Of a stretch of 64,000 bases of DNA, positions 1,673 through 20,738 are shown one piece after another. The notes under the pieces are model-generated. The model saw only the letters and a list, made by a program, of their open reading frames with translations, searched no databases and was not told where the DNA came from. This DNA is from a virus. Numbering within the stretch: the first letter of the stretch is position 1; the number at the start of each line of letters is the position of its first letter. A program made the position numbers and the translations under genes. Where the stretch lies: the IMG/VR virus record IMGVR_UViG_3300032315_000470, positions 7,657 through 71,656 of that record. One strand, 5' to 3'.

Positions 1673-2274
1673 GTGAAACAATTGTTTTTAATACAGAAGA
1701 AACATTAAAGGATAAAAATTATGTAACAACACATAATATTCCTTTATTTGATTTAGTACCAGATACCGATCCAATTCTCCGTCAGGTCTTACCTGAATTT
1801 GATTTTACAAATGCACCAGTTAATCCAATGGAGTTTGCCTCTTCATTGGTGGAAACTTGTAAGAAACATAATGGTTATGGATTATCTGCCAATCAATGTG
1901 GTTTTCCTTATCGTGTTTTTGTAATGGGTTCTGGTGATAATTATGTGGCATTTTTTAATCCCAGCATTGTATTGAAATCCCACAAAGAAGTTCATATGGC
2001 CGAAGGTTGTTTATCTTTTCCTTTATTGGCATTGAGTATCACACGACCAGAAGAAGTAGCGGTAACATACCAAGACTTTAATGGAGAGTGGAAACAGGCA
2101 ACCTTTAATGGTATATCTGCTCGTTGTTTTCAACATGAGCTTGACCATTTAAATGGAATAGTGTATACTAGTAAAGTAAAACCATTAGCACTACAAAGTG
2201 GATTAAAAAAACGAGATAAGATATTGAAGATGGTTAACAAGGTAAATAACAACTTGGCAAAGATTAAAAAATAA
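1669..2274 (+). CDS. def: Peptide deformylase
   Basis: GLSANQCG, EGCLS and QHELDHLNG motifs. Confidence 0.95.
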   Translation: MSETIVFNTEETLKDKNYVTTHNIPLFDLVPDTDPILRQVLPEFDFTNAPVNPMEFASSLVETCKKHNGYGLSANQCGFPYRVFVMGSGDNYVAFFNPSIVLKSHKEVHMAEGCLSFPLLALSITRPEEVAVTYQDFNGEWKQATFNGISARCFQHELDHLNGIVYTSKVKPLALQSGLKKRDKILKMVNKVNNNLAKIKK

Positions 2275-3539
2275 TGGCAACACCAATTGAATATGTAGAA
2301 AAACAATGGAATGATTGGCAAGAGAAAAATCCTGCCGATTCATTTCAACACATTGATGAAGCAAACATGAAAGAAGTCCTAATTAAAGACTTAACATACG
2401 CTTCTCAAATGGATGTTCGTGAATATACTCTATATCAAAAATGGTGTGAGGTGAAAGAACGGTATCCTGTCTTTGAAGCCAGTACTATATTTGGTACAGA
2501 GTTACAGATGGTTGATCCTGAGCAAGATAAACTCATTAAAGAAGTTAGAAAAAACTTTTGGGTGCCAGAATCTCCTGATGATTATGAAAAACTAAAACCG
2601 GTTATGGTATTATCTAATGGTGAAGATGCTGCTCGTTGGAATGCCATTCGTACATTCTCATCAACCATGAAGAACAACAGCAACATTGGTCGTAATCTAT
2701 TTTATGTTTTAACAGATGAAGTTACTGGTAAATATCTTGGTGTTATCTGCATCTCCTCAGACTTTCTGGACTTGACTCCGAGAGATAACGCCATCGGATG
2801 GTCGAGAGATGTTAAGACACAGCAACACATGATTAATCACACCGCAATTGGATCCACCATCGTTCCGTTACAACCACTAGGTTTTAATTACATGGGTGGT
2901 AAGTTATTGGCCTTGATGTGTTTATCTGATACGGTTCAGGCCGATTGGAAAAGACAATATGGAGACACTCTTGTTGGCGTTACTACAACGTCACTCTATG
3001 GAAAAACAAAGGCTGGAGGCCTCTCGCAGTATGATGGTCTTGAACATTGGAATCCTATGGGTTTTTCTTCTGGTTCTGTGGCTTTCGAACCATCGAGGTC
3101 AACCAAAAAAATAGTGTTTGATTGGATCAAAGAGAATCATACTCGTAAATACTTTGAATGGTGGGAGGCCAAGAATACACAAGGACTTCCACTCAAGCGT
3201 GACCATAAGAATCGTTCTTTAAACTTTGCATATTCTAAACTACAAATACCTAAAGAACTGATTCGCACCGAACATCAACGTGGTATCTATTTTAGTCCTC
3301 TCTATAATAATACCTTTGAATTTCTCCGTAAGGAGATTACTGATTCTGATCTGGTAAAGTCGTTTGATACCAGTGAAGAAGCCCTTGCCAATATTTGGAA
3401 AACCAAGTATGCTAAGGGACGAATTAGGCAATTACAGAAGAAGAATACCGTTTCTTACGAATCTTTATTCTATAATGACCTAATTTACTTGTCTTGGGAA
3501 GAAACCAAGGCAAAATATTTGCCACAAGTTGGCAGATAA
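2274..3539 (+). CDS. DUF4338/DruA-like (Mom-related GNAT fold) protein, paralog 1
   Basis: GRNLFY..D...GKYLGVI, RDNAIGW, PLGFNYMGGKLLA, TTTSLYG..SQYDG motifs resemble DUF4338/DruA. Confidence 0.6.
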   Translation: MATPIEYVEKQWNDWQEKNPADSFQHIDEANMKEVLIKDLTYASQMDVREYTLYQKWCEVKERYPVFEASTIFGTELQMVDPEQDKLIKEVRKNFWVPESPDDYEKLKPVMVLSNGEDAARWNAIRTFSSTMKNNSNIGRNLFYVLTDEVTGKYLGVICISSDFLDLTPRDNAIGWSRDVKTQQHMINHTAIGSTIVPLQPLGFNYMGGKLLALMCLSDTVQADWKRQYGDTLVGVTTTSLYGKTKAGGLSQYDGLEHWNPMGFSSGSVAFEPSRSTKKIVFDWIKENHTRKYFEWWEAKNTQGLPLKRDHKNRSLNFAYSKLQIPKELIRTEHQRGIYFSPLYNNTFEFLRKEITDSDLVKSFDTSEEALANIWKTKYAKGRIRQLQKKNTVSYESLFYNDLIYLSWEETKAKYLPQVGR

Positions 3540-3647
3540 ACAAAACAAGTATACCATCAATATGCTTGACACACACATATATATAATGATATGATGTGAG
3601 AACTTGCTTAAGGCAAGGATTTATTAACTTTACTATGGAGTATTACA

Positions 3648-3914
3648 ATGAGCAAATTATCTGCTAAAGAAAAGATGTTGAATGCCTTACAACAACCTTC
3701 TGGTTACAACACTTTTACTGTCAAACAAGCCCAACGCCGTTTCGGCATCACCAATGTTACCGCCCGCATTGACGAACTACGTCAAGATGGTCATGTAATC
3801 TACACAAACAAAAAAGTTGTAGATGGTAAGAAAGTTGCCTTCTATCGTATGGGTAAACCAACCAAAGCTATGGTTCGTGCCGCATACAAAGGTGGTTTTA
3901 GCTTTACTGCCTAA
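3648..3914 (+). CDS. Small winged helix-turn-helix DNA-binding protein
   Basis: TVKQAQRRFGITNVTARIDELRQDGHVI pattern; GGAG RBS, upstream TTGACA promoter, downstream terminator. Confidence 0.6.
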   Translation: MSKLSAKEKMLNALQQPSGYNTFTVKQAQRRFGITNVTARIDELRQDGHVIYTNKKVVDGKKVAFYRMGKPTKAMVRAAYKGGFSFTA

Positions 3915-3926
3915 TAATCTTTAGTG

Positions 3927-3956
3927 GGGAGGTCCTCAAAAAGGACTCCCTTTTTT
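3927..3956 (+). terminator. Rho-independent terminator
   Basis: GGGAGGTCCT-loop-AGGACTCCC followed by TTTTTT. Confidence 0.8.
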
Positions 3957-3972
3957 ATTTCTCGGAGAACAA

Positions 3973-4791
3973 ATGGAAATTTCAATTAAAAAAGAAGAAT
4001 TACAAAAAAAGAGTCTGTTTGTCGCTACACCAATGTATGGCGGCATGAATCACGGACTATACATGAAAGCCTGTCTGGATCTACAAGGTCTGTGTTTGCA
4101 ATACGGCGTACAGATTAAATTTTCATTTCTTTTCAACGAATCACTAATTACTCGTGCAAGAAACTATCTTGTAGATGAGTTTATTCATCGTTCAGAATGT
4201 ACGCACATGTTGTTCTTGGATTCGGACATTTCTTTCAATCCACAAGATGTAATCGCTTTACTTGCACTCGATAAAGACGTTGCTGGAGGTCCTTATCCTA
4301 AGAAGGCCATCAAATGGAAATCAGTTAAGAAAGCTGTAGAAAAGAAACCAGATATTGATCCACAGACACTTGAAAAAGTTACTGGTGATTATGTGTTCAA
4401 TCCAGTTAAGGGTACAGCACAATTCTCGGTTACAGAACCACTTGAAGTATTAGAAATTGGCACAGGATTCATGATGATCCGCCGTGAAGTGTTTGAGAAG
4501 ATGGAAAAACAATATCCAGAAATTCGTTATAAACCAGACCATGTAGGTCAGGCTAACTTTGATGGATCACGATACATTCATGCGTTCTTTGATACGGTCA
4601 TTGATACAAAAAATTCAATCACTGGTGGCGGCTCGGATCGTTACCTGAGTGAAGATTATATGTTCTGTCAGATGTGGCGTAAGATGGGTGGTTCAATCTG
4701 GTTATGCCCTTGGATGAAAACATCACACATTGGTACTTATCACTTTCATGGAGATATGCCAGCTGTTGCTAATTTTGTCGGAGAAATGTAA
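3973..4791 (+). CDS. GT-A fold glycosyltransferase-like protein
   Basis: VATPMYGG start, ESLITRARN, LFLDSDI (DxD), GTGFMMI, LSEDYMFC. Confidence 0.7.
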   Translation: MEISIKKEELQKKSLFVATPMYGGMNHGLYMKACLDLQGLCLQYGVQIKFSFLFNESLITRARNYLVDEFIHRSECTHMLFLDSDISFNPQDVIALLALDKDVAGGPYPKKAIKWKSVKKAVEKKPDIDPQTLEKVTGDYVFNPVKGTAQFSVTEPLEVLEIGTGFMMIRREVFEKMEKQYPEIRYKPDHVGQANFDGSRYIHAFFDTVIDTKNSITGGGSDRYLSEDYMFCQMWRKMGGSIWLCPWMKTSHIGTYHFHGDMPAVANFVGEM

Positions 4792-5243
4792 TGGTTAAAA
4801 TTTATGAAAGTCCGGATAAAGGTAAAACCATATACGAAAGAAACTTTGGTGAAGCGGATCGACAGACATATTATGTGAAAGATGGTGGTAGAATTGTTGC
4901 AGAAGCTCCTTATCAACCTGGATATGAAGATGCTGTACCACAACCAACACAAGAGATTGGTCGTAAGTTTGATGGTGGTAAATTGATGTATGGACTTCTT
5001 CCACCTCTGGCCTTGGAAGAAACAGTTAAAGTATTAACCTTTGGTGCTCAAAAATATGAACCCGATAATTGGCAGTTTGTACCTGATTCTAAGCGTAGGT
5101 ATTTCGATGCCTTACAACGACACCTTTGGGCTTGGAAGCAAGGTGAGCAAATCGACCAAGAATCTCGATTGCCGCATCTGGCACATGCGATGTGTTGCCT
5201 AATGTTTTTATATGAACACGATGTTAAGTATTCCAAAGAATAA
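4791..5243 (+). CDS. dATP/dGTP diphosphohydrolase domain protein (DUF5664-like)
   Basis: GRKFDGGK..YGLLP, FGAQKYEPDNW, DALQRHL, ESRLPHLAHA. Confidence 0.8.
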   Translation: MVKIYESPDKGKTIYERNFGEADRQTYYVKDGGRIVAEAPYQPGYEDAVPQPTQEIGRKFDGGKLMYGLLPPLALEETVKVLTFGAQKYEPDNWQFVPDSKRRYFDALQRHLWAWKQGEQIDQESRLPHLAHAMCCLMFLYEHDVKYSKE

Positions 5244-5980: not shown

Positions 5981-5982
5981 TT

Positions 5983-7414: not shown

Positions 7415-7803
7415 TGCCAGATTTATTCAAGGAGATTATACCCTCAATACTCCAAACTAAAAAGTCTGTAATCCACGATGATATAGATGCTAAAGACTAT
7501 ACACCCTTTGTGGTTAATAGAGCCTTGTCTTACCACATGGATTGTGTTCTATATGCGAATGAGATGAATTTGTATCCTGAGGTTGATAAAGACCTTCAAT
7601 ACCAATACCTGTTAGGTTCTATTCGTCCAATGAAACGTAAATTTCAACCGTGGCAGAAATCGGAGACCGATAAAAATATAGAATGTGTCAAGACATACTT
7701 TGGTTACTCCAATCAGAAAGCCAAAGAGGCTCTTCGTATTCTGAATAATGAACAAATCGATGAAATAAAAAGAAAAACAGATAAGGGCGGAGTTAAAAGT
7801 TGA
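7414..7803 (+). CDS. gp62: Clamp loader small subunit
   Basis: YTPFVVNRALS, ANEMN, YFGYSNQKAKEAL; synteny. Confidence 0.92.
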   Translation: MPDLFKEIIPSILQTKKSVIHDDIDAKDYTPFVVNRALSYHMDCVLYANEMNLYPEVDKDLQYQYLLGSIRPMKRKFQPWQKSETDKNIECVKTYFGYSNQKAKEALRILNNEQIDEIKRKTDKGGVKS

Positions 7804-7808
7804 ATTGT

Positions 7809-7816
7809 TATAAATA
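7809..7816 (+). promoter_or_regulatory. T4-type late promoter
   Basis: Exact TATAAATA upstream of the HNH gene. Confidence 0.6.
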
Positions 7817-7846
7817 TACAATAACACTTTTATTAAATATAAAAAT

Positions 7847-8413
7847 ATGATTTATCCAACCACACTTAAAGAAGCCAAAGTCTTGCAGACAAAATATTAC
7901 CAAACTGGTAAATTATGTCCACAAGGACATAACTCCAAAAGATACACCAAATGTTCTCGTTGTGTTGAATGTGTTTCTGAAAAACAAAAAATTTCAGGCA
8001 ACAAATATGCAAAAAAATGGAGAGAAACACATAAAGAATCAAATAAAGTAAAAAGCAAAGAAGAATATAGGAAACAAGGAAAAAATTATATTTACTTGAT
8101 GTGGTCGAGAGCCAAAAAAAGAGCTCTAGAAAAAAACATACCCTTCGATATTAATTTGAGTGATATAATTATTCCTACTGTTTGTCCTGTATTGAATGTT
8201 CCTTTTGCAATAAATGCTTCCGGCCGTGGTCCTGGAGATTATTCTCCGTCATTGGATAGAATCATTCCAGAATTGGGGTATGTTAAAAATAATATTAAAG
8301 TTATATCATTCAAAGCAAATAGAATAAAATCTGATGCGGATGTTGTTGATTTAAAAAAAGTTTTGGAATATGTGGAACACAACAATTCTAAATATAACAA
8401 TAACATTCTATAA
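7847..8413 (+). CDS. HNH-type homing endonuclease, free-standing between gp62 and regA
   Basis: C-x2-GH...CxxC N-terminus; CPVL...SPSLDRI..GYVKNN...ANRIK HNH-like core. Confidence 0.8.
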   Translation: MIYPTTLKEAKVLQTKYYQTGKLCPQGHNSKRYTKCSRCVECVSEKQKISGNKYAKKWRETHKESNKVKSKEEYRKQGKNYIYLMWSRAKKRALEKNIPFDINLSDIIIPTVCPVLNVPFAINASGRGPGDYSPSLDRIIPELGYVKNNIKVISFKANRIKSDADVVDLKKVLEYVEHNNSKYNNNIL

Positions 8414-11331: not shown

Positions 11332-11346
11332 ATTAATAAAAAACGC

Positions 11347-11374: not shown

Positions 11375-11387
11375 GATTTACTTAGAT

Positions 11388-11462: not shown

Positions 11463-11477
11463 ATTTTTAGTTTCAAT

Positions 11478-11553
11478 TCCGGTCAAGCAAACACGGTGTA
11501 GGCGGAGGACTGTTAATCCTTGAAGCGTGGTTCGATTCCACGGACCGGAGCCA
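11478..11553 (+). tRNA. tRNA-Asn(GTT)
   Basis: Acceptor TCCGGTC/GACCGGA; loop CTGTTAA; CCA. Confidence 0.93.
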
Positions 11554-11573
11554 CTTTTTTAAAGGAGAGTATT

Positions 11574-11768
11574 ATGAAAAAGAAAACACCTCCTCAACCA
11601 CGAAACTATCTTGTCAAATTGGCATTGTTTCGTAAAGCAGGGAGTCATCGTAAAAGTAACAAAGCTTTAAGGCGTAACGACAAGGTAAAGATTAAGGATA
11701 AAATGTATCCTATTATTGACATTATAGTTAATAGTGTGTATAATAGGATACATTCTGTCCATAGTTAA
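11574..11768 (+). CDS. Small basic hypothetical protein within the tRNA cluster
   Basis: AAGGAG RBS; PRNYLVK..RKAGSHRKS motif; 3' end overlaps a promoter and tRNA-Arg. Confidence 0.5.
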   Translation: MKKKTPPQPRNYLVKLALFRKAGSHRKSNKALRRNDKVKIKDKMYPIIDIIVNSVYNRIHSVHS

Positions 11769-11829
11769 ATGGATATAACACAGACCTTCTAAGTCTGATT
11801 TCCAGGTTCGATTCCTGGTGGACGGACCA
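11755..11829 (+). tRNA. tRNA-Arg(TCT)
   Basis: CAGAC-CTTCTAA-GTCTG anticodon arm; GGTTCGATTCC; CCA. Confidence 0.92.
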
Positions 11830-11831
11830 AG

Positions 11832-11906
11832 GGGCCAATAGCTTAATGGTAAAGCGTCCGACTCATAATCGGTTGAGTAATAGTTCAATTCTATTTTGGC
11901 CCACCA
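11832..11906 (+). tRNA. tRNA with CAT anticodon, probably Ile2 (lysidine type) or elongator Met
   Basis: GGGCCAA/TTGGCCC acceptor; CGACTCATAATCG arm resembles bacterial tRNA-Ile2. Confidence 0.85.
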
Positions 11907-12021
11907 AGTATACCACAATATCTATTGACAATCATCATAGATAAGTATATAATTAGATTTACTGTTGTGAAACAGCAAAACTTCCGTCATTAAGTGACCC
12001 TGTAACCGGTAAGCAGGATAT

Positions 12022-12088
12022 GCGGTGTGTAATAGTACGATTTGAGATACCCTCTTGAATTATCTGAGCATAGCAGACCACCGCTCCA
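12022..12088 (+). ncRNA. Non-canonical tRNA-Gly-like RNA (ACC anticodon-like loop, UCCA end)
   Basis: Four-arm fold: GCGGTG/CACCGC, TGTA/TACG, ATTTGAG/CTTGAAT, TCTG/CAGA; lacks D-loop GG and the TTC T-loop. Confidence 0.6.
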
Positions 12089-12114
12089 AATTTTAGTTTA
12101 AAGGATAAAATATC

Positions 12115-12303
12115 ATGGCAGCCAAAGGTTCAAACCAAAAAACTCGTAAAGCAAATCCTATGTTGACCAAAACTGGTAAACCAAGATTAGGTCCTTTAAA
12201 TGTTGAGCAACTAACAAAATTGTTAGATGGTGCTCGCAAAAAACACAAAGCAAAAATTCAACGAGCAATTACAAGACGAACCCAACCACCAGTCGCAGTT
12301 TAA
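12115..12303 (+). CDS. Small basic hypothetical protein
   Basis: AAGGA RBS; Lys/Arg-rich 62 aa. Confidence 0.6.
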   Translation: MAAKGSNQKTRKANPMLTKTGKPRLGPLNVEQLTKLLDGARKKHKAKIQRAITRRTQPPVAV

Positions 12304-12308
12304 TATTG

Positions 12309-12382
12309 GCCCCTATAGTTAAACGGTATAACAGTTGATTTGTAATCATCAATTCGCAGTTCGATTCTGTGTGGGGGCACCA
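12309..12382 (+). tRNA. tRNA-Thr(TGT)
   Basis: GCCCCTA/TGGGGGC acceptor; loop TTTGTAA; CCA. Confidence 0.92.
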
Positions 12383-12516
12383 TGAAAAAAGTTGAAGTTG
12401 TTCCTGAAGCAAACACACCAACATCTAGCTGGGGTAGAACATTAACAAAACAAGAATTATTAGATTTACTGAATAGATTAGAAGCAAAGAAAAAAGCAAG
12501 AAAAGATAAAGATTAA
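12382..12516 (+). CDS. Putative 44-aa protein between tRNAs
   Basis: ATG shares the A of the tRNA-Thr CCA; open to TAA just before tRNA-Gly. Confidence 0.35.
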   Translation: MKKVEVVPEANTPTSSWGRTLTKQELLDLLNRLEAKKKARKDKD

Positions 12517-12517
12517 T

Positions 12518-12591
12518 GCGGGATTAGTTTAATGGTAAAACTAAAGGTTTCCAACCTTTCGTTGTCAGTTCGATTCTGTCATCCCGCTCCA
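12518..12591 (+). tRNA. tRNA-Gly(TCC)
   Basis: GCGGGAT/ATCCCGC acceptor with U73; loop TTTCCAA; CCA. Confidence 0.93.
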
Positions 12592-12624
12592 CAACGACTA
12601 CATACAATTTTATGAAAGTGAACT

Positions 12625-12882
12625 ATGAATATTAAACCATTAAAAGATAAGATTCTTGTTTCTAGAATTGCTGGAGAAAAACAAACTGAATTCGGCATCA
12701 TTCTTAAATCATCAGAAGGTCCAGATAAAGCTTTAGTTGAATCTATTGGTCCCAAAGTAGATGAAGTTTCTGTTGGTGATGAAGTTCTAATTAATTGGAA
12801 CGGCGCAGTGAAAGTTTCTGGTAAAGAAATCGAAAAAGAATTATACGTTGTTTCTATTGAACATGTAATTTTAGTTTACTAA
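12625..12882 (+). CDS. groES: GroES-like co-chaperonin
   Basis: IKPLKDKILV...GIIL...IGP...VSVGDEVL. Confidence 0.88.
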   Translation: MNIKPLKDKILVSRIAGEKQTEFGIILKSSEGPDKALVESIGPKVDEVSVGDEVLINWNGAVKVSGKEIEKELYVVSIEHVILVY

Positions 12883-12905
12883 TATTCAGGAAATACTTTT
12901 ACAAT

Positions 12906-12980
12906 CGCAGAGTAGCTCAGAGGTAGAGCATTGGACTCATAATCCAGGGGCCGGTGGTTCGATTCCATCCTCTGCAACCA
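12906..12980 (+). tRNA. tRNA-Met(CAT), initiator-like
   Basis: C1:A72 mismatch; loop CTCATAA; CCA. Confidence 0.88.
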
Positions 12981-12994
12981 ATAAGGAGATATTA

Positions 12995-13156
12995 ATGACT
13001 GATTTGGAAAAGTATCGTCAGATGGCTTTAGATTTATGGTTTTCTGACGGAGGTTCTTGTACAGGTGCAAAGTCTCCACCAGAACCAAAAGATATTGATG
13101 ATGCTATTGCTGAAGATGAAGAATTTAAACGAATTGAAAATCAACAAAAGAGGTAG
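12995..13156 (+). CDS. Small acidic hypothetical protein (53 aa)
   Basis: TAAGGAG RBS; open frame; not in ORF track. Confidence 0.55.
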   Translation: MTDLEKYRQMALDLWFSDGGSCTGAKSPPEPKDIDDAIAEDEEFKRIENQQKR

Positions 13157-13159
13157 AAT

Positions 13160-13471
13160 ATGAAAATTTTGGCACTAAAACTGATAACAGGAGAAGATGT
13201 ACTCGGAGAAATTGAATCTGAATCCGAAACCGAATTTGTGTTAGTCAATCCCGTAGGTATTGCCGTGGTTCGTGGCAAAGATGGCCAACCATCTGTTGGA
13301 TTTGCACCGTTTCCCATTCATGCCGAACAAAAATCAAATGCACTGGTTGCCTTGTCTAAGAAGAATGTAGTATACTCTTATGTTCCTGCAGAAGATTTTA
13401 TCACGAACTATAATCAAATTTTTGGTTCTGGTATTATTGTTCCTCCAACAAAACAATTAATTACAGGTTAA
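13160..13471 (+). CDS. Conserved T4-like phage hypothetical protein upstream of gp43
   Basis: LKLITGEDVLGE start and YNQIFGSGIIVP end, typical of aquatic T4-like phages. Confidence 0.65.
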   Translation: MKILALKLITGEDVLGEIESESETEFVLVNPVGIAVVRGKDGQPSVGFAPFPIHAEQKSNALVALSKKNVVYSYVPAEDFITNYNQIFGSGIIVPPTKQLITG

Positions 13472-13472: not shown

Positions 13473-16010
13473 TTGAGTTCATCATTCTATACCAATGTTC
13501 AATGCTTTGGTAGCAACATACTCTATCGAGGAATTCAAGATGGCAAAAGAGTAAAACAGAGAATTGAATATTCTCCTTCCCTTTTTCTACCCTCCAAACG
13601 AGTTACTAATTTCACCACACTTACTGGTGATTACCTAGACCAAAAAGTATTTGGTACAACTAAAGAGGCAAGAGATTACATCAAGCAATTCGATGGTGTG
13701 TCTGGTGCCTCTAAAGTCTATGGTCAAACACGATTTGAATATGCCTTTATTGCCGATCAACACCAAGGCATGGTTGACTATGACCAGGATAAAGTCTTAA
13801 TTGCTGTAATCGATATCGAGGTCGGCTCAGAAAATGGCTTTCCTGATCCATATGAAGCAAACGAACCTATCACAGCAATTGCAGTAAAATATCTTAATGG
13901 TAAAACTTATGTGTTTGGCTGTGGTGATTATGTTACGCAAGGCGAAGAGGTCTATGTAAAGTGCAAAGATGAATATTCCTTATGTAAACAATTCATGGCA
14001 CTATGGACAAAAGTGTGTCCCGATATTCTTACTGGTTGGAACACCAAGTTCTTTGATGTGCCGTACATCATCAATCGTTTTCGCAAAATTCTAGGTGAAG
14101 ATGAAACTAAAACCTTGTCTCCTTGGAAATATCTTACCGAAAGAAAAACTCGAATCAATGGTCGTGAGTTAATTGCTTATGACATTGTTGGTGTTGCAGC
14201 ACTTGATTATATTGAACTGTACAAATGGTATGCGCCAGGTGGTAAGTCACAAGAATCATATCGTTTAGATAACATTGCACAGGTTGAATTGGGTGAAGGT
14301 AAAATTGCATATGACGAATATGATAATCTACATGCTCTGTATCGTTTAAATTATCAAAAGTTTATTGAGTATAACATCAAAGACGTTGAGTTGATTGTTC
14401 GACTTGAAGAAAAATTGAAACTGTTGGAACTAGGTGTAACTCTGGCCTACGATACAAAATCCAACTACGAAGATATTTTTGCTCAAACTCGTATGTGGGA
14501 TGCAATGACTTATTCCTACTTGCGTGAGAAAAACATTATTGTTCCACCAAGAGAAGTAAAAGAAAAAGACGGAATGTTTGAAGGTGCATATGTTAAAACA
14601 CCAAAAACAGGATTACATGATTGGGTTGCCAGTTTCGATTTGAACTCACTCTATCCACATTTGATGATGCAATATAATATTTCTCCAGAAACTCTAATTG
14701 AACCTGAAGATTATACACAAGAGATGAGAAGTGTTTTGTCACAAGGCGTTTCTGTTGAGAAACTTCTGACTAAATCGGTCGACACTTCTAAATTAGAGAA
14801 TGTCACACTCACTCCAAACGGACAATTTTTCCGTACAGACATTCAAGGTTTCTTACCTAAAATGATGGAAGAAATGTATCAAGATAGAAGTAAGTTTAAG
14901 AAGATGATGTTGGCTGCAAAACAAGAATATGAAAATGAAACAGATGAATCAAAAAAATACGAAATCGAAAAACGAATCGCTAAGTATAACAATATTCAGC
15001 TCGCCAAAAAAGTTTCTCTTAACTCTGCTTACGGTGCTCTTGGTTCTCAATATTTTAGATTTTATGACCTAAGAATGGCTCTTGGCGTCACGACTGCTGG
15101 ACAATTAAGTATTCGTTGGATCGAAAATAAGATTAACCAATACATGAACAACTTATTAAAAACGGAAGAAGATTATGTTATCGCCTCTGACACAGATTCG
15201 ATTTATCTCCACCTTGGTGAACTTGTTAAGAAGGTGTATCCAAACCAGACTGATGTTAAACAAGTTATCGCCTTCATGGACAAGGTCTGTGAAGATAAGC
15301 TACAACCTTTTATTGACAAGAGTTATCAAGAGCTCGCTACGTATGTTCATGCTTATGACCAAAAAATGCAGATGAAACGAGAAGGCCTTTCCAATAAAGG
15401 TATCTGGACGGCCAAGAAACGTTACATTCTAAATGTATATAACAATGAAGGTGTGCAATACAACGAGCCACAGATGAAGGTGATGGGTCTGGAGATGATT
15501 AAATCGTCCACACCTTCTGCTATCCGTGAGAAGATGAAAGAAGCAATTCAATTAATGGTAAATGGATCACAAGAAGATATTCATAAGTTTATTGCAGACT
15601 TCAGAGCTGAATTCAAAACTTTGCCTGTAGAAGAAATATCTTTTCCTCGGGGATTAAATGGGCTAAATACTTATTCTGATACGGTACATCTTTATAAGAA
15701 AGGTACACCAATTCATGTTAAGGGTGCGATTATATACAATAACAATCTAAAACGATTGAATCTCACCAAAAAGTATCCACTCATACAAGAAGGCGAAAAG
15801 GTTAAATTTACTTATCTGAAAATGCCAAACCCGTTTAAAGATACTGTTATTTCTTATCCTTCTCGTTTACCTAAAGAATTTGAAATGCAACAATACATCG
15901 ATTATGATATGCAATTTGATAAAGCATTTCTCGAACCCATCAAAGTCATTTTAGATTGTATGAAGTGGTCAACAGAAAAAACTAGTTCAATAGAAGATTT
16001 CTTCTCATGA
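13473..16010 (+). CDS. gp43: Family B DNA polymerase
   Basis: DIEV exonuclease I, SFDLNSLYP, KVSLNSAYG and SDTDS motifs. Confidence 0.98.
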   Translation: MSSSFYTNVQCFGSNILYRGIQDGKRVKQRIEYSPSLFLPSKRVTNFTTLTGDYLDQKVFGTTKEARDYIKQFDGVSGASKVYGQTRFEYAFIADQHQGMVDYDQDKVLIAVIDIEVGSENGFPDPYEANEPITAIAVKYLNGKTYVFGCGDYVTQGEEVYVKCKDEYSLCKQFMALWTKVCPDILTGWNTKFFDVPYIINRFRKILGEDETKTLSPWKYLTERKTRINGRELIAYDIVGVAALDYIELYKWYAPGGKSQESYRLDNIAQVELGEGKIAYDEYDNLHALYRLNYQKFIEYNIKDVELIVRLEEKLKLLELGVTLAYDTKSNYEDIFAQTRMWDAMTYSYLREKNIIVPPREVKEKDGMFEGAYVKTPKTGLHDWVASFDLNSLYPHLMMQYNISPETLIEPEDYTQEMRSVLSQGVSVEKLLTKSVDTSKLENVTLTPNGQFFRTDIQGFLPKMMEEMYQDRSKFKKMMLAAKQEYENETDESKKYEIEKRIAKYNNIQLAKKVSLNSAYGALGSQYFRFYDLRMALGVTTAGQLSIRWIENKINQYMNNLLKTEEDYVIASDTDSIYLHLGELVKKVYPNQTDVKQVIAFMDKVCEDKLQPFIDKSYQELATYVHAYDQKMQMKREGLSNKGIWTAKKRYILNVYNNEGVQYNEPQMKVMGLEMIKSSTPSAIREKMKEAIQLMVNGSQEDIHKFIADFRAEFKTLPVEEISFPRGLNGLNTYSDTVHLYKKGTPIHVKGAIIYNNNLKRLNLTKKYPLIQEGEKVKFTYLKMPNPFKDTVISYPSRLPKEFEMQQYIDYDMQFDKAFLEPIKVILDCMKWSTEKTSSIEDFFS

Positions 16011-16891
16011 TATACCTAACACTACTTTCAGCCTTATTACTTTCTGGTATTGCAGCCTATTATTCTATTATAGGATTGGCAGCAATCTTCACTGGTGCTT
16101 TTTGGCCAATCGTTTTCATGGGTTCTGTTTTGGAAATGAGTAAGTTGGTTACTGCATCATGGTTATATCGTAATTGGAAAACCTGCCCACTTTTATTGAA
16201 ATCATACTTGACATCTGCCGTAGTAGTATTAATGGTGATTACAAGTATGGGTATTTTTGGTTTTCTATCCCAAGCACACATTGATTCCACATTAGAAGCT
16301 GGTGCCAACTCAGTAGAAATAAAAACACTCAAACAGCAAGAAAAGATTGCCAATGAGCGATTAGAATATTTACTGAAACGTGCAGGTAATCCTGAAACGG
16401 CATCAGCCAATGTTGATAGACAAATTCAACAAACACAGAGGGAATTGGCTGATATCAATAAACGAAAATTACCATTATTAAAAGAAGAAAATAAACTTGT
16501 GGCAGAAGTTGGTCCTATCAAATATATTGGTGATATGATATATGGTACAGATGATACCAATGCCATTGATAAAGCAGTTCGTTTGGTAATTATGTTAATA
16601 ATGGTTGTATTTGACCCGCTAGCTGTGTTATTATTGATAGCAGCAAATATGTCAATGAAGAAACCGGAAGAAACCCAACCGGTTAAAAAAACATGGAATG
16701 AATTCTTTAAAAAAGAACCTGTGCCTGATGATATGGTTGAAGTTGAAAAAGAAAACATTGCCACAGTCGAGGAGAATGTGGAACTAGACTCACAGAAAAA
16801 GAAACGTGGTTTTCCGAATAGGAAGAATAAACTAGAAACCAAGTATGACTATGATGCTGAATTAGCATTTCGTGAAAAGGAAAGTAAATGA
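16007..16891 (+). CDS. Membrane protein with coiled coil, function unknown
   Basis: Three N-terminal hydrophobic segments, coiled coil, further TM segment VVFDPLAVLLLIAAN. Confidence 0.65.
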   Translation: MIYLTLLSALLLSGIAAYYSIIGLAAIFTGAFWPIVFMGSVLEMSKLVTASWLYRNWKTCPLLLKSYLTSAVVVLMVITSMGIFGFLSQAHIDSTLEAGANSVEIKTLKQQEKIANERLEYLLKRAGNPETASANVDRQIQQTQRELADINKRKLPLLKEENKLVAEVGPIKYIGDMIYGTDDTNAIDKAVRLVIMLIMVVFDPLAVLLLIAANMSMKKPEETQPVKKTWNEFFKKEPVPDDMVEVEKENIATVEENVELDSQKKKRGFPNRKNKLETKYDYDAELAFREKESK

Positions 16892-17961: not shown

Positions 17962-18281
17962 TGACAGAAGGTATTGATTATTGTTTCATCTATCCTAAAG
18001 ATGATAATACTGCGGTAAACATTAGGTTGTTGCAAGGACCATACAAAGACACATTATTCAAATACGGTAAGGTAAAGTTCAAAGAAGAAAATGAACAAAT
18101 CTATTTACTTTTCGCCTACGATGTGTTAGAATCCACCGTAGATACTCCTAAGAAACTGGAGAAAGATGGCAAGTTCAAAGATTACCTAGGTGATTTACTT
18201 GTCGAATTAATGTCAAATAATATTGAGCAGGAAATAGTGGATGAAACTGGAACAGACGATATTAAAAACCCTGATTTATAA
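17961..18281 (+). CDS. Hypothetical protein at the T4 gp40 position
   Basis: Lies between uvsX and gp41; positional evidence only. Confidence 0.55.
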   Translation: MTEGIDYCFIYPKDDNTAVNIRLLQGPYKDTLFKYGKVKFKEENEQIYLLFAYDVLESTVDTPKKLEKDGKFKDYLGDLLVELMSNNIEQEIVDETGTDDIKNPDL

Positions 18282-19632
18282 TGAAGAATTTCTGCGGAAA
18301 GTTTTACCATTTTTAAAGACGGAATATTTTAGTGATAGTGTAGAGAGAACTTTATTTAATGAGATTACATCGTTCACGGAAACTTATAATGCTGCGCCAT
18401 CGGTTGAAGCAATTGATATTGCCGTCAAAGAAAGGCGTAATCTCACGGATGACGAAGTTAAGAGATGTGAATCTTATCTTAAAGAAATCGAAGCTAATAG
18501 CCAAACAGAAACCAAGATTCAATGGCTTGTTGATAAAACAGAATCGTTTTGCCAAGAGAAGGCCATATACAATGCAGTATTGGGGTCTATTTCAATTCTC
18601 GATGGCAAAGACAAAACGAATGATAAAGGTGCGATTCCCAAGATATTATCGGATGCTTTGGCCATTTCTTTCGACAACTCCGTAGGGCATGATTACCTAG
18701 AAAACTCAGATGAACGATATGAATTTTACCATAGAAAAGAAGAACGAATACCCTTTGATTTGGAATATTTTAACAAAATTACAAAGGGAGGACTACCTAC
18801 CAAAACCCTTAATATTGCTCTTGCTGGTACTGGCGTTGGTAAATCTTTGTTTATGTGTCATGTTGCTGCCGGTGCTATGGTTCAAGGAAAAAATGTGTTA
18901 TATATTACACTTGAAATGGCTGAAGAAAAGATTGCTGAAAGAATAGATGCAAACTTATTGAATGTTTCACTTGATGATTTGATGGAACTACCTAAAGATT
19001 TATATGACAAGAAGGTTGCTCGTGTTCGTGAGAAATGTACCGGCAAACTTATCATTAAAGAATACCCAACCGCTTCAGCATCCGTAACACACTTCAGAAC
19101 ATTATTAAATGAACTCAACCTCAAAAGGTCTTTCGTACCTGACATTATCTTTATTGATTATCTTAATATCTGTTGTTCTTCTCGTATTAAGGCTGGTGCG
19201 AATATTAACTCTTACACTTACGTTAAGTCAATCGCAGAAGAACTTAGGGGCCTTGCGGTTGAACATAATGTTCCTATTGTATCTGCTACACAGACTACAA
19301 GGAGTGGATTTACATCGAGCGATCCTGGTTTGGAAGATACGAGTGAGTCATTCGGGTTACCTGCAACCGCCGACTTAATGTTTGCTTTGATTTCTTCAGA
19401 AGAACTGGAAGAACTTGGCCAAATTATGATCAAACAATTGAAGAATAGATATAATGATCCAACATTTCACAAACGATTCACTCTCGGGGTTGATAGAGCT
19501 AAAATGAAACTATATGATGTCGAACAATCCGCACAGACGGGTATTGCAGATGCTGGCCATGATAAACCATTAAACACGTTTGGTACAAGAGAAGAAAAAC
19601 AAAAGAAATCATTTAATGGATTTAAAGTATGA
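18241..19632 (+). CDS. gp41: Replicative helicase
   Basis: AGTGVGKS, LEMAEE, IDYLNI, SATQTTR, QLKNRY. Confidence 0.97.
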   Translation: MKLEQTILKTLIYNEEFLRKVLPFLKTEYFSDSVERTLFNEITSFTETYNAAPSVEAIDIAVKERRNLTDDEVKRCESYLKEIEANSQTETKIQWLVDKTESFCQEKAIYNAVLGSISILDGKDKTNDKGAIPKILSDALAISFDNSVGHDYLENSDERYEFYHRKEERIPFDLEYFNKITKGGLPTKTLNIALAGTGVGKSLFMCHVAAGAMVQGKNVLYITLEMAEEKIAERIDANLLNVSLDDLMELPKDLYDKKVARVREKCTGKLIIKEYPTASASVTHFRTLLNELNLKRSFVPDIIFIDYLNICCSSRIKAGANINSYTYVKSIAEELRGLAVEHNVPIVSATQTTRSGFTSSDPGLEDTSESFGLPATADLMFALISSEELEELGQIMIKQLKNRYNDPTFHKRFTLGVDRAKMKLYDVEQSAQTGIADAGHDKPLNTFGTREEKQKKSFNGFKV

Positions 19633-20738
19633 TAATCTCCAGAGATAATGGTTTGTATTGTGCTAAAGCCTTTCATGATTACTTTAGTAATATTGGAAGT
19701 ACCGAAGAATACATGCGAGATGAGAAGCTAAAGAATGTGGCTGATATGCCATCTTCCTTATTTCCAATTGAAGATGATTTGTTTTCTGATTTCTCGATGC
19801 ATCCAAAAGATATGGATATTGAAGTGTGTGAAATACCAAATGATGTTTGGGAACCATTACTGGCCATTACCAGTTCACATATTAATAAAGCACCAGTTGG
19901 TAAGAATATACAATTGGCAGTCAAGGAAAAGAACTCAGGAAAGATTCTAGGATTCATTCGTTTAGGTTCACCTGTCATCTATATGAAACCCCGTAATGAC
20001 TACCTAGGACAAGTTTGGATTCAAAATGAAGATACTGCCAAGAGGTTTAATACGGCTTGTGTTATGGGTTTCGTAATTGTATCATCTCAACCATTCGGTT
20101 TCAATTACTTGGGTGGTAAACTATTATCTGCCATTTGTACCAGTCACACCGTTAGAGAGATATGTAATAAAAAATATGGCATGAATATATGTTTATTTGA
20201 AACTACCAGTTTATACGGAAGTACCAAGTCGGTTTCACAGTATGATGGTATGAAACCTTATATTCGTTTTAAAGGTCTAACAGAATCGGATATTGTGCCA
20301 ATGATGCACGGACAAAGATACCACGATTTAAAGAACTATGTAGAGAATATTACTGGAGATTTGTTGGGTGGTGATACATCAACAACTAGTAGAAAACTTA
20401 GAACATTCACTAAGATTATTGCTCTCACCAAAGCTGCTTTAAAAGGAACACCTGAAGGAGAGGATTTCAACCTAACGATTGAGAATGCTAAAAAGTTGAC
20501 AGAAAAGAAACGATATTATATCTCTGATTATGGATTTAAGAATACTGTTGACTATATGAATTGTAAAACAGATAAACTTTTACCTGGTGAAAATTATGAG
20601 AAACATAATTTAGAAAACATTATTGCTTGGTGGAAACAGAAAGCAACCAATCGTTATGAATCTCTGAAGGTTGATGGCCGATTAAGAACTGAACTTGAAA
20701 TCTGGACATCAGGCAAAGAGATCCAGATTATCAGATAA
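19629..20738 (+). CDS. DUF4338/DruA-like (Mom-related) protein, paralog 2
   Basis: GKILGFIRLGSP...PRN, QPFGFNYLGGKLLS, ETTSLYG..SQYDG shared with 2274-3539. Confidence 0.6.
   Translation: MIISRDNGLYCAKAFHDYFSNIGSTEEYMRDEKLKNVADMPSSLFPIEDDLFSDFSMHPKDMDIEVCEIPNDVWEPLLAITSSHINKAPVGKNIQLAVKEKNSGKILGFIRLGSPVIYMKPRNDYLGQVWIQNEDTAKRFNTACVMGFVIVSSQPFGFNYLGGKLLSAICTSHTVREICNKKYGMNICLFETTSLYGSTKSVSQYDGMKPYIRFKGLTESDIVPMMHGQRYHDLKNYVENITGDLLGGDTSTTSRKLRTFTKIIALTKAALKGTPEGEDFNLTIENAKKLTEKKRYYISDYGFKNTVDYMNCKTDKLLPGENYEKHNLENIIAWWKQKATNRYESLKVDGRLRTELEIWTSGKEIQIIR

What the first reader, a model, noticed from the sequence alone, without database searches (positions are those of the whole stretch)
2274..20738. 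Candidate tRNA-Gly-dependent DNA modification system: two Mom/DruA-like paralogs in the replication core plus a private tRNA-Gly-like RNA
Seen: ORFs 2274-3539 and 19629-20738 share P(L/F)GFNY(M/L)GGKLL and TTSLYG..SQYDG motifs. One is coupled behind gp46/def, the other overlaps the gp41 helicase stop. Between them lie a canonical tRNA-Gly(TCC) and a non-canonical Gly-identity cloverleaf (12022-12088). Knowledge: these motifs resemble DUF4338/DruA, which I recall as related to the phage Mu Mom GNAT fold. Mom makes N6-carbamoylmethyl-adenine and, as I recall, has been reported to use glycyl-tRNA as donor; FemABX GNAT enzymes use dedicated non-ribosomal tRNA-Gly. Inference: the paralogs, possibly as a heterodimer, may modify newly replicated DNA using a dedicated glycine carrier RNA, as anti-restriction. 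The link between the parts is speculative.
Basis: partly seen in the sequence, partly recalled or inferred. Interest (0 to 1): 0.8.

Follow-up and report, generated by a model that had tools for sequence, protein, structure and literature searches.

The report
Phage GNAT pair, odd glycine tRNA
A marine SAR11-type phage carries two DruA-like acyltransferase genes and a conserved, misshapen look-alike of glycine tRNA that may carry glycine for something other than protein synthesis, but nothing yet shows that the enzymes use it.

Summary
ORFs 2274-3539 and 19629-20738 are paralogs (35% identity over 140 aa) and both pass Pfam DruA/DUF4338. They sit in the T4-type replication module of a relative of Pelagibacter phages HTVC008M and Mosig. 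AlphaFold models (pLDDT 90-91) have a GNAT fold. Mom is among the nearest structural neighbours, but there is no profile similarity to Mom, and a CoA-type QxxGxN motif is kept.

The cloverleaf at 12022-12088 is real. It belongs to a conserved family of 66-74-nt tRNA-Gly-like RNAs in pelagimyophage contigs, and all four helices show compensatory changes. The family keeps every bacterial GlyRS identity element and an encoded CCA. It lacks the TTC of the T loop (xGC instead, as in staphylococcal non-proteogenic tRNA-Gly) and the D-loop GG. The positions that would be 33 and 34 vary.

The link between RNA and enzymes is unproven. Every RNA-bearing contig over 50 kb has the 421-aa paralog. However, five cyanophages and three complete genomes have a paralog without this RNA.

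My odds:
- the RNA is a non-ribosomal glycine carrier: about 0.4
- the GNATs use it: about 0.25
- the full DNA-glycylation model: about 0.15

The parts
2274..3539 (+). P0001, 421-aa DruA/DUF4338-family GNAT paralog (pelagimyophage-type)
   Evidence: ORF. Pfam PF14236 E 1.2e-20, 74.3 bits. PADLOC DruA 2.5e-16. AF2 pLDDT 91.2. Foldseek gives GNAT hits only. 58% identity to the Mosig 'DUF4338 domain-containing protein' and 55% to an HTVC008M protein.
19629..20738 (+). P0002, 369-aa DruA/DUF4338-family GNAT paralog (type shared with T4-like cyanophages)
   Evidence: ORF. Pfam PF14236 E 7.4e-9, 35.6 bits. phrog_19197 E 5.5e-131 over its full length. AF2 pLDDT 90.0. Foldseek: GNATs including Mom 8bv8_B and a BFVD Mom at rank 6. 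37-49% identity to proteins of 25 Synechococcus phage records.
12022..12088 (+). 67-nt non-canonical tRNA-Gly-like RNA (type A): 6-7-bp acceptor stem, U73, encoded CCA, 3-bp D arm, 9-bp anticodon helix with an ACC-containing loop, 4-bp T arm with loop AGCAUAG
   Evidence: Fold. Exact copies in 3 IMG/VR contigs. Family alignments. Covariation: 96.1% of cells paired, 8 pairs changed on both sides, 0 of 500 shuffles reach this. Covariance model R1 finds exactly one copy in the window.
11925..11953 (+). Perfect sigma-70-type promoter consensus (12 of 12) about 69 nt upstream of the RNA
   Evidence: Consensus scan. This is a pattern match only; transcription is not shown.
12518..12591 (+). Canonical tRNA-Gly(UCC) with the same acceptor identity (GCGG...CCGC-U-CCA) and a normal TTCGATT T loop
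   Evidence: ARAGORN. Rfam RF00005 64.2 bits.
12115..12303 (+). 62-aa basic ORF 27 nt downstream of the RNA (context; used as the anchor to fetch relatives)
   Evidence: ORF. 134 of 165 candidate IMG/VR stretches encode a relative. No Pfam family.
1669..2274 (+). Peptide deformylase gene, overlapping the start of P0001 (context)
   Evidence: phrog_2890 E 5e-37. The same deformylase-then-DUF4338 order is found in Mosig.
18241..19632 (+). DnaB/gp41-like replicative helicase gene, overlapping the start of P0002 by 4 nt (context)
   Evidence: phrog_19 E 5.1e-132.

Best explanation
The span holds two real features whose connection is plausible but not shown.

(1) The enzymes. P0001 and P0002 are stand-alone DruA/DUF4338-family GNAT-fold acyltransferases. 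They are transcribed with the T4-type recombination and replication genes of a pelagimyophage. By inference they acylate a nucleic acid or a replication-associated target early in infection. The acyl donor is open. A QxxGxN motif sits at the beta4-alpha3 junction, where CoA-using GNATs bind pyrophosphate, and this favours acyl-CoA (about 0.5). An aminoacyl-tRNA donor as in Mom is possible (about 0.3).

(2) The RNA. 12022-12088 encodes a tRNA-like RNA. By inference it is made from its own early-type promoter, trimmed like a tRNA (its CCA is encoded) and charged with glycine by the host GlyRS. It keeps G1-C72, C2-G71, G3-C70, U73, C35 and C36. It has lost the features the ribosome pathway relies on: T54-Psi55, the D-loop GG and a purine at 37, and across the family U33 and a fixed base at 34. 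I therefore read it as a glycine carrier kept out of translation, like the staphylococcal non-proteogenic tRNA-Gly.

The best candidate user is the P0001-type GNAT (about 0.25 overall). Shown: the genes, the fold, RNA conservation and covariation, and the distribution. Inferred: charging, exclusion from the ribosome, and any transfer reaction.
For: Enzymes:
- Pfam, PADLOC and PHROG hits.
- GNAT fold from confident models.
- Mom is the first named non-family hit in BFVD (rank 6, E 1.6e-3, TMt 0.59) and has prob 0.99 in PDB.
- The genes always lie in replication modules: after gp43 in HTVC008M, and between gp44 and gp62 in 5 of 5 cyanophages inspected.
- DUF4338 is described as a GNAT fused to DndF in PMC10853773 (passage read).

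RNA:
- 60 of 80 loci anchored on the small ORF hold a non-canonical copy, giving 33 distinct sequences counting the window's own copy.
- Type A/A2: 18 sequences, 96.1% of cells paired, 8 of 23 pairs changed on both sides against 4.0 +/- 0.9 in shuffles (0 of 500), and 0-1 in slid controls.
- Type B: 13 sequences, 100% paired, 5 pairs changed on both sides (10 of 500); covariation score reached by 0 of 500.
- GCGG...CCGC-U-CCA is invariant in 33 of 33. The anticodon CC is invariant in 18 of 18 and 13 of 13. This is the bacterial glycine identity set of PMC9976931 (passage read).
- The T loop has xGC in place of TTC. Type B and the L160 RNA have TGC, the triplet that marks staphylococcal non-proteogenic tRNA-Gly (PMC7826273, passage read).
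- The position that would be 33 is U, A, C or G, and the position that would be 34 is A or U, among close relatives.
- Copies with a UCC anticodon sit beside a canonical tRNA-Gly(UCC) in L011 to L013 and L160.
- HTVC008M and Mosig each carry one 74-nt relative: the model finds one match in each whole record, with T loops AGCGUUA and GGCAGUA (script 108). tRNAscan reported 0 tRNAs for HTVC008M (PMC7029224 Table 1, passage read).

Link:
- 13 of 15 RNA-bearing IMG/VR contigs tested carry a P0001-like gene. The two without are fragments of 43 and 18 kb.
- HTVC008M and Mosig carry both the gene and the RNA.
Against: - hhalign of the family profile against Mu Mom gives probability 0.2%. Mom is absent from the 50 rows printed for P0001. 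The residues essential in Mom (R111, S124, D149, R151; PMC13219725 section 13) have no evident counterparts among this family's invariant residues.
- The CoA-type motif argues for an ordinary acyl-CoA donor.
- Many paralog-bearing phages lack the RNA: 0 of 5 cyanophages, and 0 of 3 complete genomes with a single P0001-like gene. Those three hold only a canonical tRNA-Gly(UCC).
- All RNA-bearing genomes belong to one viral lineage, so the co-occurrence amounts to few independent events.
- GGT makes up 176 of 308 glycine codons in 19 window ORFs. An ACC anticodon could therefore have a plain decoding role. The HTVC008M and Mosig versions keep a normal anticodon loop (UUACCAA).
- No expression, processing or charging data were obtained.
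Confidence: 0.4

Rival explanations
1. No link, and the RNA is a working though odd elongator tRNA-Gly. Its ACC anticodon reads GGU, the phage's commonest glycine codon, and complements the phage's canonical tRNA-Gly(UCC). The GNAT paralogs are ordinary acyl-CoA-dependent acyltransferases with an unrelated target.
For: - GGT is 176 of 308 glycine codons in 19 ORFs.
- ACC is the anticodon in the window copy, HTVC008M and Mosig.
- The HTVC008M and Mosig versions are 74 nt with a 7-bp acceptor, a 5-bp anticodon stem and the loop UUACCAA. ARAGORN calls the HTVC008M one a tRNA-Gly(acc).
- A QxxGxN motif lies at the CoA pyrophosphate-binding position.
Against: - Close relatives switch between ACC and UCC (L073, L217 and L229 against L019 and L031).
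- UCC versions duplicate an adjacent canonical tRNA-Gly(UCC).
- The base that would be 33 is A, C or G in 16 of 31 aligned sequences.
- Position 37 is C in 17 of 18 type A/A2 sequences.
- No T54-Psi55 and no D-loop GG.
- Type A has no variable loop and a 9-bp anticodon helix.
Confidence: 0.2
2. The RNA is a counter-defence tool rather than a donor. One form is a chargeable decoy that soaks up a host factor aimed at Gly-tRNA-Gly, such as a TacT-like acetylating toxin or an anticodon nuclease. The other is a cleavage-resistant stand-in for host tRNA-Gly. The GNATs act independently.
For: - U73 with G71 is the feature TacT recognises (PMC9976931, passage read), and both are invariant here.
- The family varies fast in the anticodon loop while the acceptor end stays fixed.
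- Phage tRNAs that neutralise tRNA-cleaving defences are known. This point is recalled; no paper was read for it here.
Against: - Only one of more than 100 SAR11 genomes is said to encode a restriction-modification system (PMC7029224, passage read). The host clade therefore looks poor in defences.
- No tRNA-Gly-directed system was looked for or found here.
- A stand-in tRNA would still have to decode, which its features argue against.
Confidence: 0.12
3. The cloverleaf acts only in cis. It would be a tRNA-like processing signal (an RNase P cut site) or a leader structure that shapes the mRNA of the ORF just downstream, and it carries no amino acid.
For: - In the window (27 nt), HTVC008M (about 16 nt before the S21 gene) and Mosig an ORF starts just after the RNA.
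- A promoter-like site lies upstream.
Against: - The downstream gene differs: a 62-aa basic ORF here and S21 in HTVC008M.
- In L014 and L015 the type A copy sits after the small ORF, not before it.
- A processing signal would not need invariant C35-C36, U73 and an encoded CCA.
Confidence: 0.05

Closest known systems
Phage Mu Mom (GNAT that moves glycine from Gly-tRNA-Gly to N6 of adenine in dsDNA; PMC13219725, PDB 8BV8)
   Same: GNAT fold. Phage-encoded. For P0002, Mom is among the nearest structural neighbours: 8bv8_B prob 0.99, rmsd 4.9 over 163 columns, and a BFVD Mom at rank 6, E 1.6e-3, TMt 0.59. A glycine-specific tRNA is in play.
   Different: No profile similarity (hhalign probability 0.2%). 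About 130-180 residues longer (369 and 421 aa against Mom's 241), with extra helical N- and C-terminal parts. Mom's essential residues are not evidently kept. These proteins keep a CoA-type QxxGxN motif where Mom has none. Mom uses host tRNA and has no RNA of its own. Mom is a late gene with Com control, whereas these genes sit among replication genes.
DruA (DUF4338, PF14236) of type I Druantia anti-phage systems
   Same: Same Pfam family, above the cut-off for both proteins. PADLOC DruA models also hit.
   Different: No DruB-E partners: the neighbours are T4-type replication genes. It is encoded by a phage, not a defence island. DruA's own activity is not described in the papers I saw (search listings; the one DUF4338 passage of PMC10853773; one search matched only 'Druantia' passages, none describing DruA).
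Non-proteogenic tRNA-Gly (NP1-3) of Staphylococcus aureus and S. epidermidis with FmhB/FemA/FemB (PMC7826273)
   Same: Extra tRNA-Gly genes beside a normal one. Glycine identity is kept. The T loop has TGC or TGT in place of TTC (type B and the L160 RNA have TGC; the window copy has AGC). There is a deviant D loop. The suggested role is a glycine donor kept away from EF-Tu and the ribosome.
   Different: The phage RNAs are much more reduced (66-70 nt, 3-bp D arm, no variable loop, long anticodon helix). No Fem-family gene was seen. The T-stem pairs here (U-A, C-G, U-A) are not the staphylococcal A-U, U-A, A-U set. PMC7826273 states that such tRNAs had been detected only in these two staphylococci.
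TmcA / NAT10-type RNA cytidine acetyltransferases (acetyl-CoA-dependent GNATs acting on tRNA or rRNA)
   Same: 2zpa_A appears in both Foldseek lists with long alignments (372 and 281 columns; prob 0.60 and 0.91). It is a GNAT joined to nucleic-acid-binding parts.
   Different: TM-scores are low (0.16-0.26). There is no helicase-like domain here and no sequence similarity.

Membership tests
Pfam PF14236 DruA / DUF4338 | Profile HMM score above the curated gathering cut-off (27 bits) | tested here: met
   P0001 scores 74.3 bits (E 1.2e-20, profile positions 49-296 of 297). P0002 scores 35.6 bits (E 7.4e-9, profile 77-183).
Type I Druantia system | DruA encoded together with DruB, DruC, DruD and the DruE helicase | tested here: not met
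   The ORFs of 95-22001 that were scanned (19) are annotated as T4-type replication or recombination genes, tRNAs, chaperonin-like proteins or unknowns. No Druantia partner is seen. PADLOC was run on the two GNATs only.
GNAT superfamily | GNAT fold | tested here: met
   AF2 models have pLDDT 90.0 and 91.2. Most named Foldseek hits are GNAT-fold acyltransferases.
GNAT superfamily | Motif A (Q/R-x-x-G-x-G/A) at the beta4-alpha3 junction, which binds the CoA pyrophosphate | tested here: inconclusive
   In P0002, Q154-P-F-G157-F-N159 follows strand 144-152. Q, P, G and N are nearly invariant. The last position is N, not G or A. The motif definition is recalled. No ligand modelling was done.
Mom family (phage Mu) | Sequence or profile similarity to Mom | tested here: not met
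   hhalign of the 50-sequence family alignment against Mu Mom: probability 0.2%, 16 columns. PDB sequence searches give no Mom hit at E<=10.
Mom family (phage Mu) | Structural similarity closer than to other GNATs | tested here: inconclusive
   P0002: BFVD Mom at rank 6, E 1.6e-3, TMt 0.59, against 1.7e-2 and 0.53 for the next plain GNAT. PDB 8bv8_B at rank 12, E 2.7e-2. P0001: Mom is not in the 50 rows printed.
Mom family (phage Mu) | Essential residues R111, S124, D149, R151 and the HTH-like insertion (PMC13219725) | tested here: inconclusive
   No residue-level structural alignment was available. The family's invariant residues (G108, G163, K164, L165, Y205, W335 in P0002) do not resemble the Mom set read.
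Mom family (phage Mu) | Gly-tRNA-Gly as donor and dsDNA adenine as acceptor | not testable with these tools
   Needs enzyme assays or nucleoside mass spectrometry.
Canonical tRNA (Rfam RF00005) | Detected by tRNA models, with the T-loop TTC and D-loop GG | tested here: not met
   No ARAGORN call and no Rfam match at E<=1. The T loop is AGCAUAG and the D loop AUAG.
Canonical tRNA (Rfam RF00005) | Four-helix cloverleaf maintained in evolution | tested here: met
   All four helices are kept. 8 pairs (type A/A2) and 5 pairs (type B) change on both sides.
Bacterial tRNA-Gly identity (PMC9976931) | U73, G1-C72, C2-G71 (G3-C70), C35, C36 | tested here: met
   The acceptor end is invariant in 33 of 33 sequences. 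CC is invariant in the loop in 18 of 18 and 13 of 13. Actual charging was not tested.
Non-proteogenic tRNA-Gly (staphylococcal type) | TGC/TGT instead of TTC in the T loop, next to a proteogenic tRNA-Gly | tested here: met
   Type B has T loop UGCGAAU and the L160 RNA has UGCAUUA. The window copy has AGC. A canonical tRNA-Gly(UCC) lies 430 nt downstream.
Non-proteogenic tRNA-Gly (staphylococcal type) | Weak EF-Tu and ribosome binding; use by a dedicated aminoacyl-transferase | not testable with these tools
   The first three T-stem pairs here are U-A, C-G, U-A. Their EF-Tu affinity was not computed. No Fem-family gene was searched for.

The most novel reading that the evidence does not exclude
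Abundant SAR11 myophages encode their own non-ribosomal glycine carrier RNA. The host GlyRS charges it, and a DruA-type GNAT (the 421-aa paralog, perhaps also the 369-aa one) uses it to glycylate newly replicated phage DNA by Mom-like chemistry. This would be the first virus-encoded dedicated aminoacyl carrier. It would also imply that DruA of Druantia and the DndF-fused DUF4338 domains are aminoacyl-tRNA-dependent nucleic-acid modifiers.
Probability: 0.15. Interest if true: 0.9.

Novelty: new variant of a known kind. Interest (0 to 1): 0.7.

Why it matters
Dedicated non-proteogenic tRNA-Gly had been reported only from two staphylococci (PMC7826273). A DNA-modifying enzyme that draws on Gly-tRNA-Gly was shown only recently, for Mom (PMC13219725). 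This window adds a conserved and so far unannotated family of glycine-identity tRNA look-alikes in pelagimyophages. tRNAscan reported 0 tRNAs for HTVC008M (PMC7029224). Homologs of the two GNATs number in the thousands in metagenome protein sets.

If the RNA is a carrier, it gives a concrete handle on non-ribosomal uses of aminoacyl-tRNA in viruses. It would also help with the unknown activity of the DruA/DUF4338 family. Isolates exist (HTVC008M and Mosig on Pelagibacter HTCC1062, and several cyanophages), so virion DNA and infected-cell RNA can be examined directly. If the RNA is only an odd decoder, it still shows how far a tRNA can be reduced and remain in use.

My searches found no description of these RNAs: (search listings), plus passages of PMC7029224.

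Tried and rejected
- Rfam at E<=1 over 11000-13300 gave nothing at 12022-12088. A fold of the longer 11955-12115 stretch was unremarkable (z -0.61).
- blastn of 11907-12310 against phage records gave only chance-level hits.
- PDB sequence searches with P0001, P0002 and the family profile found no meaningful hit at E<=10.
- hhalign against Mu Mom found no similarity.
- ESM Atlas gave one lead below the useful score: 'Phage GNAT-like' PF22559, 0.83.
- Heterodimer test: complex prediction of P0001 with P0002 returned 'no answer' (score 0.00, controls not run). This is no evidence either way.
- Expression: 24 public runs (22 on record as RNA) held only small shares of the words. Contigs of 4 metatranscriptome runs covered only the canonical tRNA-Thr (12309-12382), and in one run the canonical tRNA-Gly region. 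None covered the cloverleaf. Contigs cannot show absence.
- Loci anchored on distant P0001-like proteins: the scans with P0355 and P0338 returned the same pelagimyophage lineage (44 loci) and one further locus. The RNA lay within the fetched flanks in 2 of 45, and many flanks were short.
- The literature search 'DruA' + 'GNAT' was swamped by unrelated words.
- A literature search for Druantia mechanism found papers on DruE and DruH, none describing DruA activity in the passages shown.
The Mom homolog network in the supplements of PMC13219725 and the per-genome tRNA tables of PMC7029224 may bear on whether DUF4338 proteins or these RNAs were seen before.
- Caveat: for records of the 'phages' collection the first look passed only 0-2 candidates, against 16-84 for IMG/VR records. 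Weak cyanophage matches could therefore have been missed.

Full report
WHAT THE WINDOW IS. tblastn of both ORFs against 50,697 phage records finds 31 records. The best for the 421-aa ORF are Pelagibacter phages Mosig EXVC030M (58% identity) and HTVC008M (55%). The 369-aa ORF matches 25 Synechococcus T4-like cyanophage records, HTVC008M, one cyanophage record and two marine single-cell virus records at 37-49%. PHROG annotation of 1-22001 gives a T4-type module:
- SbcC/gp46-like protein, peptide deformylase, then P0001
- an HTH protein, an unknown protein (weak Anp1 hit), and a MazG-like dATP/dGTP pyrophosphohydrolase
- sliding clamp, clamp loader (two genes), endonuclease, RegA, Hsp20, dCMP deaminase
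- a tRNA cluster and a Cpn10-like protein
- DNA polymerase, an unknown 294-aa ORF, UvsX, a DnaB-like helicase, then P0002

The window is bases 7657-71656 of a 71,656-base IMG/VR virus record.

CHECK OF THE OBSERVATION. All stated coordinates, overlaps and motifs are correct.
- The two proteins share 35% identity over 140 residues, E 8e-26.
- Both pass Pfam PF14236 DruA (74.3 and 35.6 bits against a cut-off of 27). Both hit PADLOC DruA and phrog_19197.
- ARAGORN finds seven tRNAs including Gly(tcc) at 12518-12591, and nothing at 12022-12088. Rfam also finds nothing there at E<=1.
- The 67-mer folds into a cloverleaf (-16.6 kcal/mol) with only a modest z-score of -2.05. On its own it could be chance.

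THE RNA IS REAL AND BELONGS TO A FAMILY.
- Exact copies lie in three IMG/VR contigs.
- I used the 62-aa ORF just downstream as an anchor and fetched 80 loci. 60 of them hold a non-canonical GCGG...CCGC-U-CCA element, 2 hold only a canonical tRNA-Gly, and 18 hold none.
- There are 33 distinct non-canonical sequences, counting the window's own copy. They form types A (67 nt, the window's), A2 (68 nt), C (68-70 nt) and B (70 nt).
- On the 18 type A/A2 sequences the four-helix structure pairs in 96.1% of cells. 8 of 23 pairs change on both sides (shuffles 4.0 +/- 0.9; 0 of 500 reach 8). Sliding the partners gives 0-1 such pairs.
- On the 13 type B sequences pairing is 100% with 5 such pairs (10 of 500), and the covariation score is reached by 0 of 500.
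- Every helix has at least one compensated pair in one of the two sets. The seventh acceptor pair is mismatched in 15 of 18 type A/A2 sequences.
- A covariance model finds one copy in the window.
Model scoring of those loci added further variants with new compensated stems.

WHAT THE RNA KEEPS AND WHAT IT HAS LOST.
Kept:
- G1-C72, C2-G71, G3-C70, G4-C69, U73 and an encoded CCA are invariant in 33 of 33.
- Two Cs in the loop at the places of C35 and C36 are invariant in 18 of 18 and 13 of 13.
- These are the bacterial glycine identity elements listed in PMC9976931 (glycine identity passage read). The window's canonical tRNA-Gly(UCC) has the same acceptor end.

Lost or loosened:
- The T loop has xGC where tRNAs have TTC: AGC in A, A2 and HTVC008M; UGC in B, C and the L160 RNA; GGC in Mosig.
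- The D arm is a 3-bp stem with a 4-5-nt loop and no GG.
- Type A has one base between the anticodon and T arms, and a 9-bp helix closing a 5-nt loop.
- The base that would be 33 is U (15), C (2) or A (1) in A/A2, and G in all 13 type B.
- The base that would be 34 is A or U even among close relatives: L073, L217 and L229 against L019, L031 and L063.
- Position 37 is C in 17 of 18 A/A2.

PMC7826273 (passages read) reports that the three staphylococcal non-proteogenic tRNA-Gly genes carry TGC or TGT instead of TTC in the T loop. It also reports that they bind EF-Tu and ribosomes poorly, and that such tRNAs had been found only in S. aureus and S. epidermidis. Some contigs carry two non-canonical copies plus a canonical tRNA-Gly(UCC) within about 1.3 kb (L011-L015). 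UCC-type copies therefore duplicate the normal gene's anticodon.

RELATIVES IN THE ISOLATES. Model R2 finds one match in each of HTVC008M (91140-91213) and Mosig (7779-7852, minus strand). Both matches are 74 nt with a normal-looking anticodon loop (UUACCAA, anticodon ACC) but deviant T loops (AGCGUUA and GGCAGUA) and no D-loop GG (script 108). ARAGORN calls the first a tRNA-Gly(acc) and misses the second. The GenBank table shows no feature at that place in HTVC008M. PMC7029224 Table 1 lists 0 tRNAs for that phage (passage read). In HTVC008M the RNA sits just before the S21 gene.

THE PROTEINS.
- Homologs are very numerous in metagenomes: 3589 and 6222 proteins at E<=1e-3 among the candidates scored, and 681 clusters at 50% identity.
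- The P0001-type and P0002-type groups align over nearly their whole lengths.
- Models built with 50-sequence alignments are confident: pLDDT 90.0 and 91.2, pTM 0.86.
- Foldseek against PDB for P0002: GNAT-fold proteins dominate the hits. The best is malonyl-CoA decarboxylase (E 7.2e-4, TM about 0.26). Mom 8bv8_B is rank 12 (E 2.7e-2, prob 0.99, TMt 0.44, rmsd 4.9 over 163 columns).
- For P0001 the best hit is a GNAT at E 4.1e-2. TmcA is rank 8 and TacT rank 34. Mom is not among the 50 rows printed.
- Against BFVD, P0002 first finds five uncharacterised proteins, three from Klosneuvirinae-type giant viruses. Next comes 'Mom [Salmonella phage FSL SP-031]' at rank 6 (E 1.6e-3, TMt 0.59), ahead of generic GNATs (E >= 1.7e-2).
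- At sequence level there is nothing. hhalign of the family against Mu Mom gives probability 0.2%, and PDB sequence searches are empty.
- The family's invariant residues include Q-P-x-G-x-N-x-x-G-G-K-L right after strand beta4. This is the position of the CoA pyrophosphate-binding motif in classical GNATs (motif recalled). Mom has no glycines there.
- PMC10853773 (one passage read) calls DUF4338 a GNAT domain and notes fusions to DndF.
- I conclude a GNAT fold with certainty. Kinship to Mom beyond the superfamily is possible but unproven. The donor is undetermined, leaning to acyl-CoA.

DO THE PARTS GO TOGETHER?
For:
- 10 of 10 longer IMG/VR contigs with the RNA carry a P0001-like gene (74-99% identity), and 7 of 10 also carry a P0002-like gene.
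- Of five further RNA-bearing contigs, 3 carry both paralogs. The 2 without are fragments of 43 and 18 kb.
- HTVC008M (both paralogs) and Mosig (P0001-type only) carry a related RNA 4-7 kb from the P0001-type gene.

Against:
- Five cyanophages with a P0002-type gene (S-SSM7, S-SM2, S-CAM9, S-T4, S-PRM1) give no non-canonical match. S-SSM7 has only a canonical tRNA-Gly(UCC).
- Three genomes rated 99-100% complete carry a single P0001-type gene (64-79% identity). They have only a canonical tRNA-Gly(UCC), set in ordinary tRNA arrays.
- Among 45 loci anchored on the protein, the RNA was within the fetched flanks in 2 (many flanks were short).
- Five large contigs that share only the small ORF have neither a DruA-like gene nor a non-canonical RNA, but they are 13-43% complete.

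In this sample the RNA therefore implies the 421-aa paralog, but not the reverse, and all RNA-bearing genomes are one lineage. Genomes with a single paralog are common, which argues against an obligate heterodimer. The complex prediction gave no answer.

RIVAL READINGS OF THE RNA. GGT is the commonest glycine codon: 176 of 308 in 19 ORFs, against GGA 69, GGC 52 and GGG 11. An ACC anticodon could simply serve translation. The HTVC008M and Mosig versions look more like working tRNAs than the window's copy does. Four things weigh against that:
- free variation at the positions of 33 and 34
- C at 37
- loss of the T-loop and D-loop contacts
- UCC copies lying beside a normal UCC gene

A decoy for factors aimed at Gly-tRNA-Gly fits the same conserved features; TacT recognises U73 and G71 (PMC9976931). 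However, no such host factor is in view. A purely cis-acting role fits poorly with the identity elements and with the differing downstream genes.

VERDICT. The most valuable result is the RNA family itself. My odds:
- real structured tRNA-like RNA: 0.95
- non-ribosomal glycine carrier: 0.4
- decoder: 0.2
- decoy: 0.12
- used by the GNATs: 0.25
- full DNA-glycylation model: 0.15

Noticed in passing
window 11347-11374, 11716-11744, 11925-11953: Three perfect (12 of 12) TTGACA-N16/17-TATAAT promoter consensus sites lie within 600 nt, each ahead of a group of tRNA genes or the cloverleaf. The first two end 11-14 nt before a tRNA 5' end; the third ends 69 nt before the cloverleaf.
   Followed up: no
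window 12115-12303 and loci L005-L084: The 62-aa basic ORF after the cloverleaf has relatives in 134 of 165 candidate IMG/VR stretches. Some are on large contigs rated 13-43% complete, where it lies near ordinary tRNA arrays. It has no Pfam family.
   Followed up: partly
window 12518-12591: The canonical tRNA-Gly(UCC) has a mismatched T-stem pair (marked in the Rfam alignment). Close relatives (L003, L007) have the paired version.
   Followed up: no
window 16007-16891: A 294-aa ORF with no PHROG or Pfam family sits directly after the DNA polymerase gene. That is the slot where HTVC008M has its P0002-type gene.
   Followed up: no
window 3648-5243: P0001 is followed by a winged-HTH protein, a 272-aa protein (phrog_1574, weak Anp1 hit) and a MazG-like dATP/dGTP pyrophosphohydrolase (phrog_801). 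In Mosig a MazG-domain gene directly follows the DUF4338 gene.
   Followed up: partly
L089-L093 (S-SSM7, S-SM2, S-CAM9, S-T4, S-PRM1): In all five cyanophages the P0002-type gene is inserted between the clamp-loader genes gp44 and gp62. As I recall, these two genes are adjacent in T4.
   Followed up: no
BFVD hits of the P0002 model: The closest predicted viral structures are uncharacterised proteins of Faunusvirus, Yasminevirus and Dasosvirus (E 3e-16 to 5e-7). DUF4338-like proteins therefore also occur in giant viruses.
   Followed up: no
L149:611-687 (IMG/VR genome G017): ARAGORN calls a tRNA with anticodon tta (reads the TAA stop) inside the tRNA array of a complete 177-kb genome that carries a P0001-like gene (script).
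   Followed up: no
L088:1501-1574 (HTVC008M 91140-91213): The only tRNA-like element that model R2 found in HTVC008M lies about 16 nt upstream of the phage's ribosomal protein S21 gene. It is unannotated in the record.
   Followed up: partly
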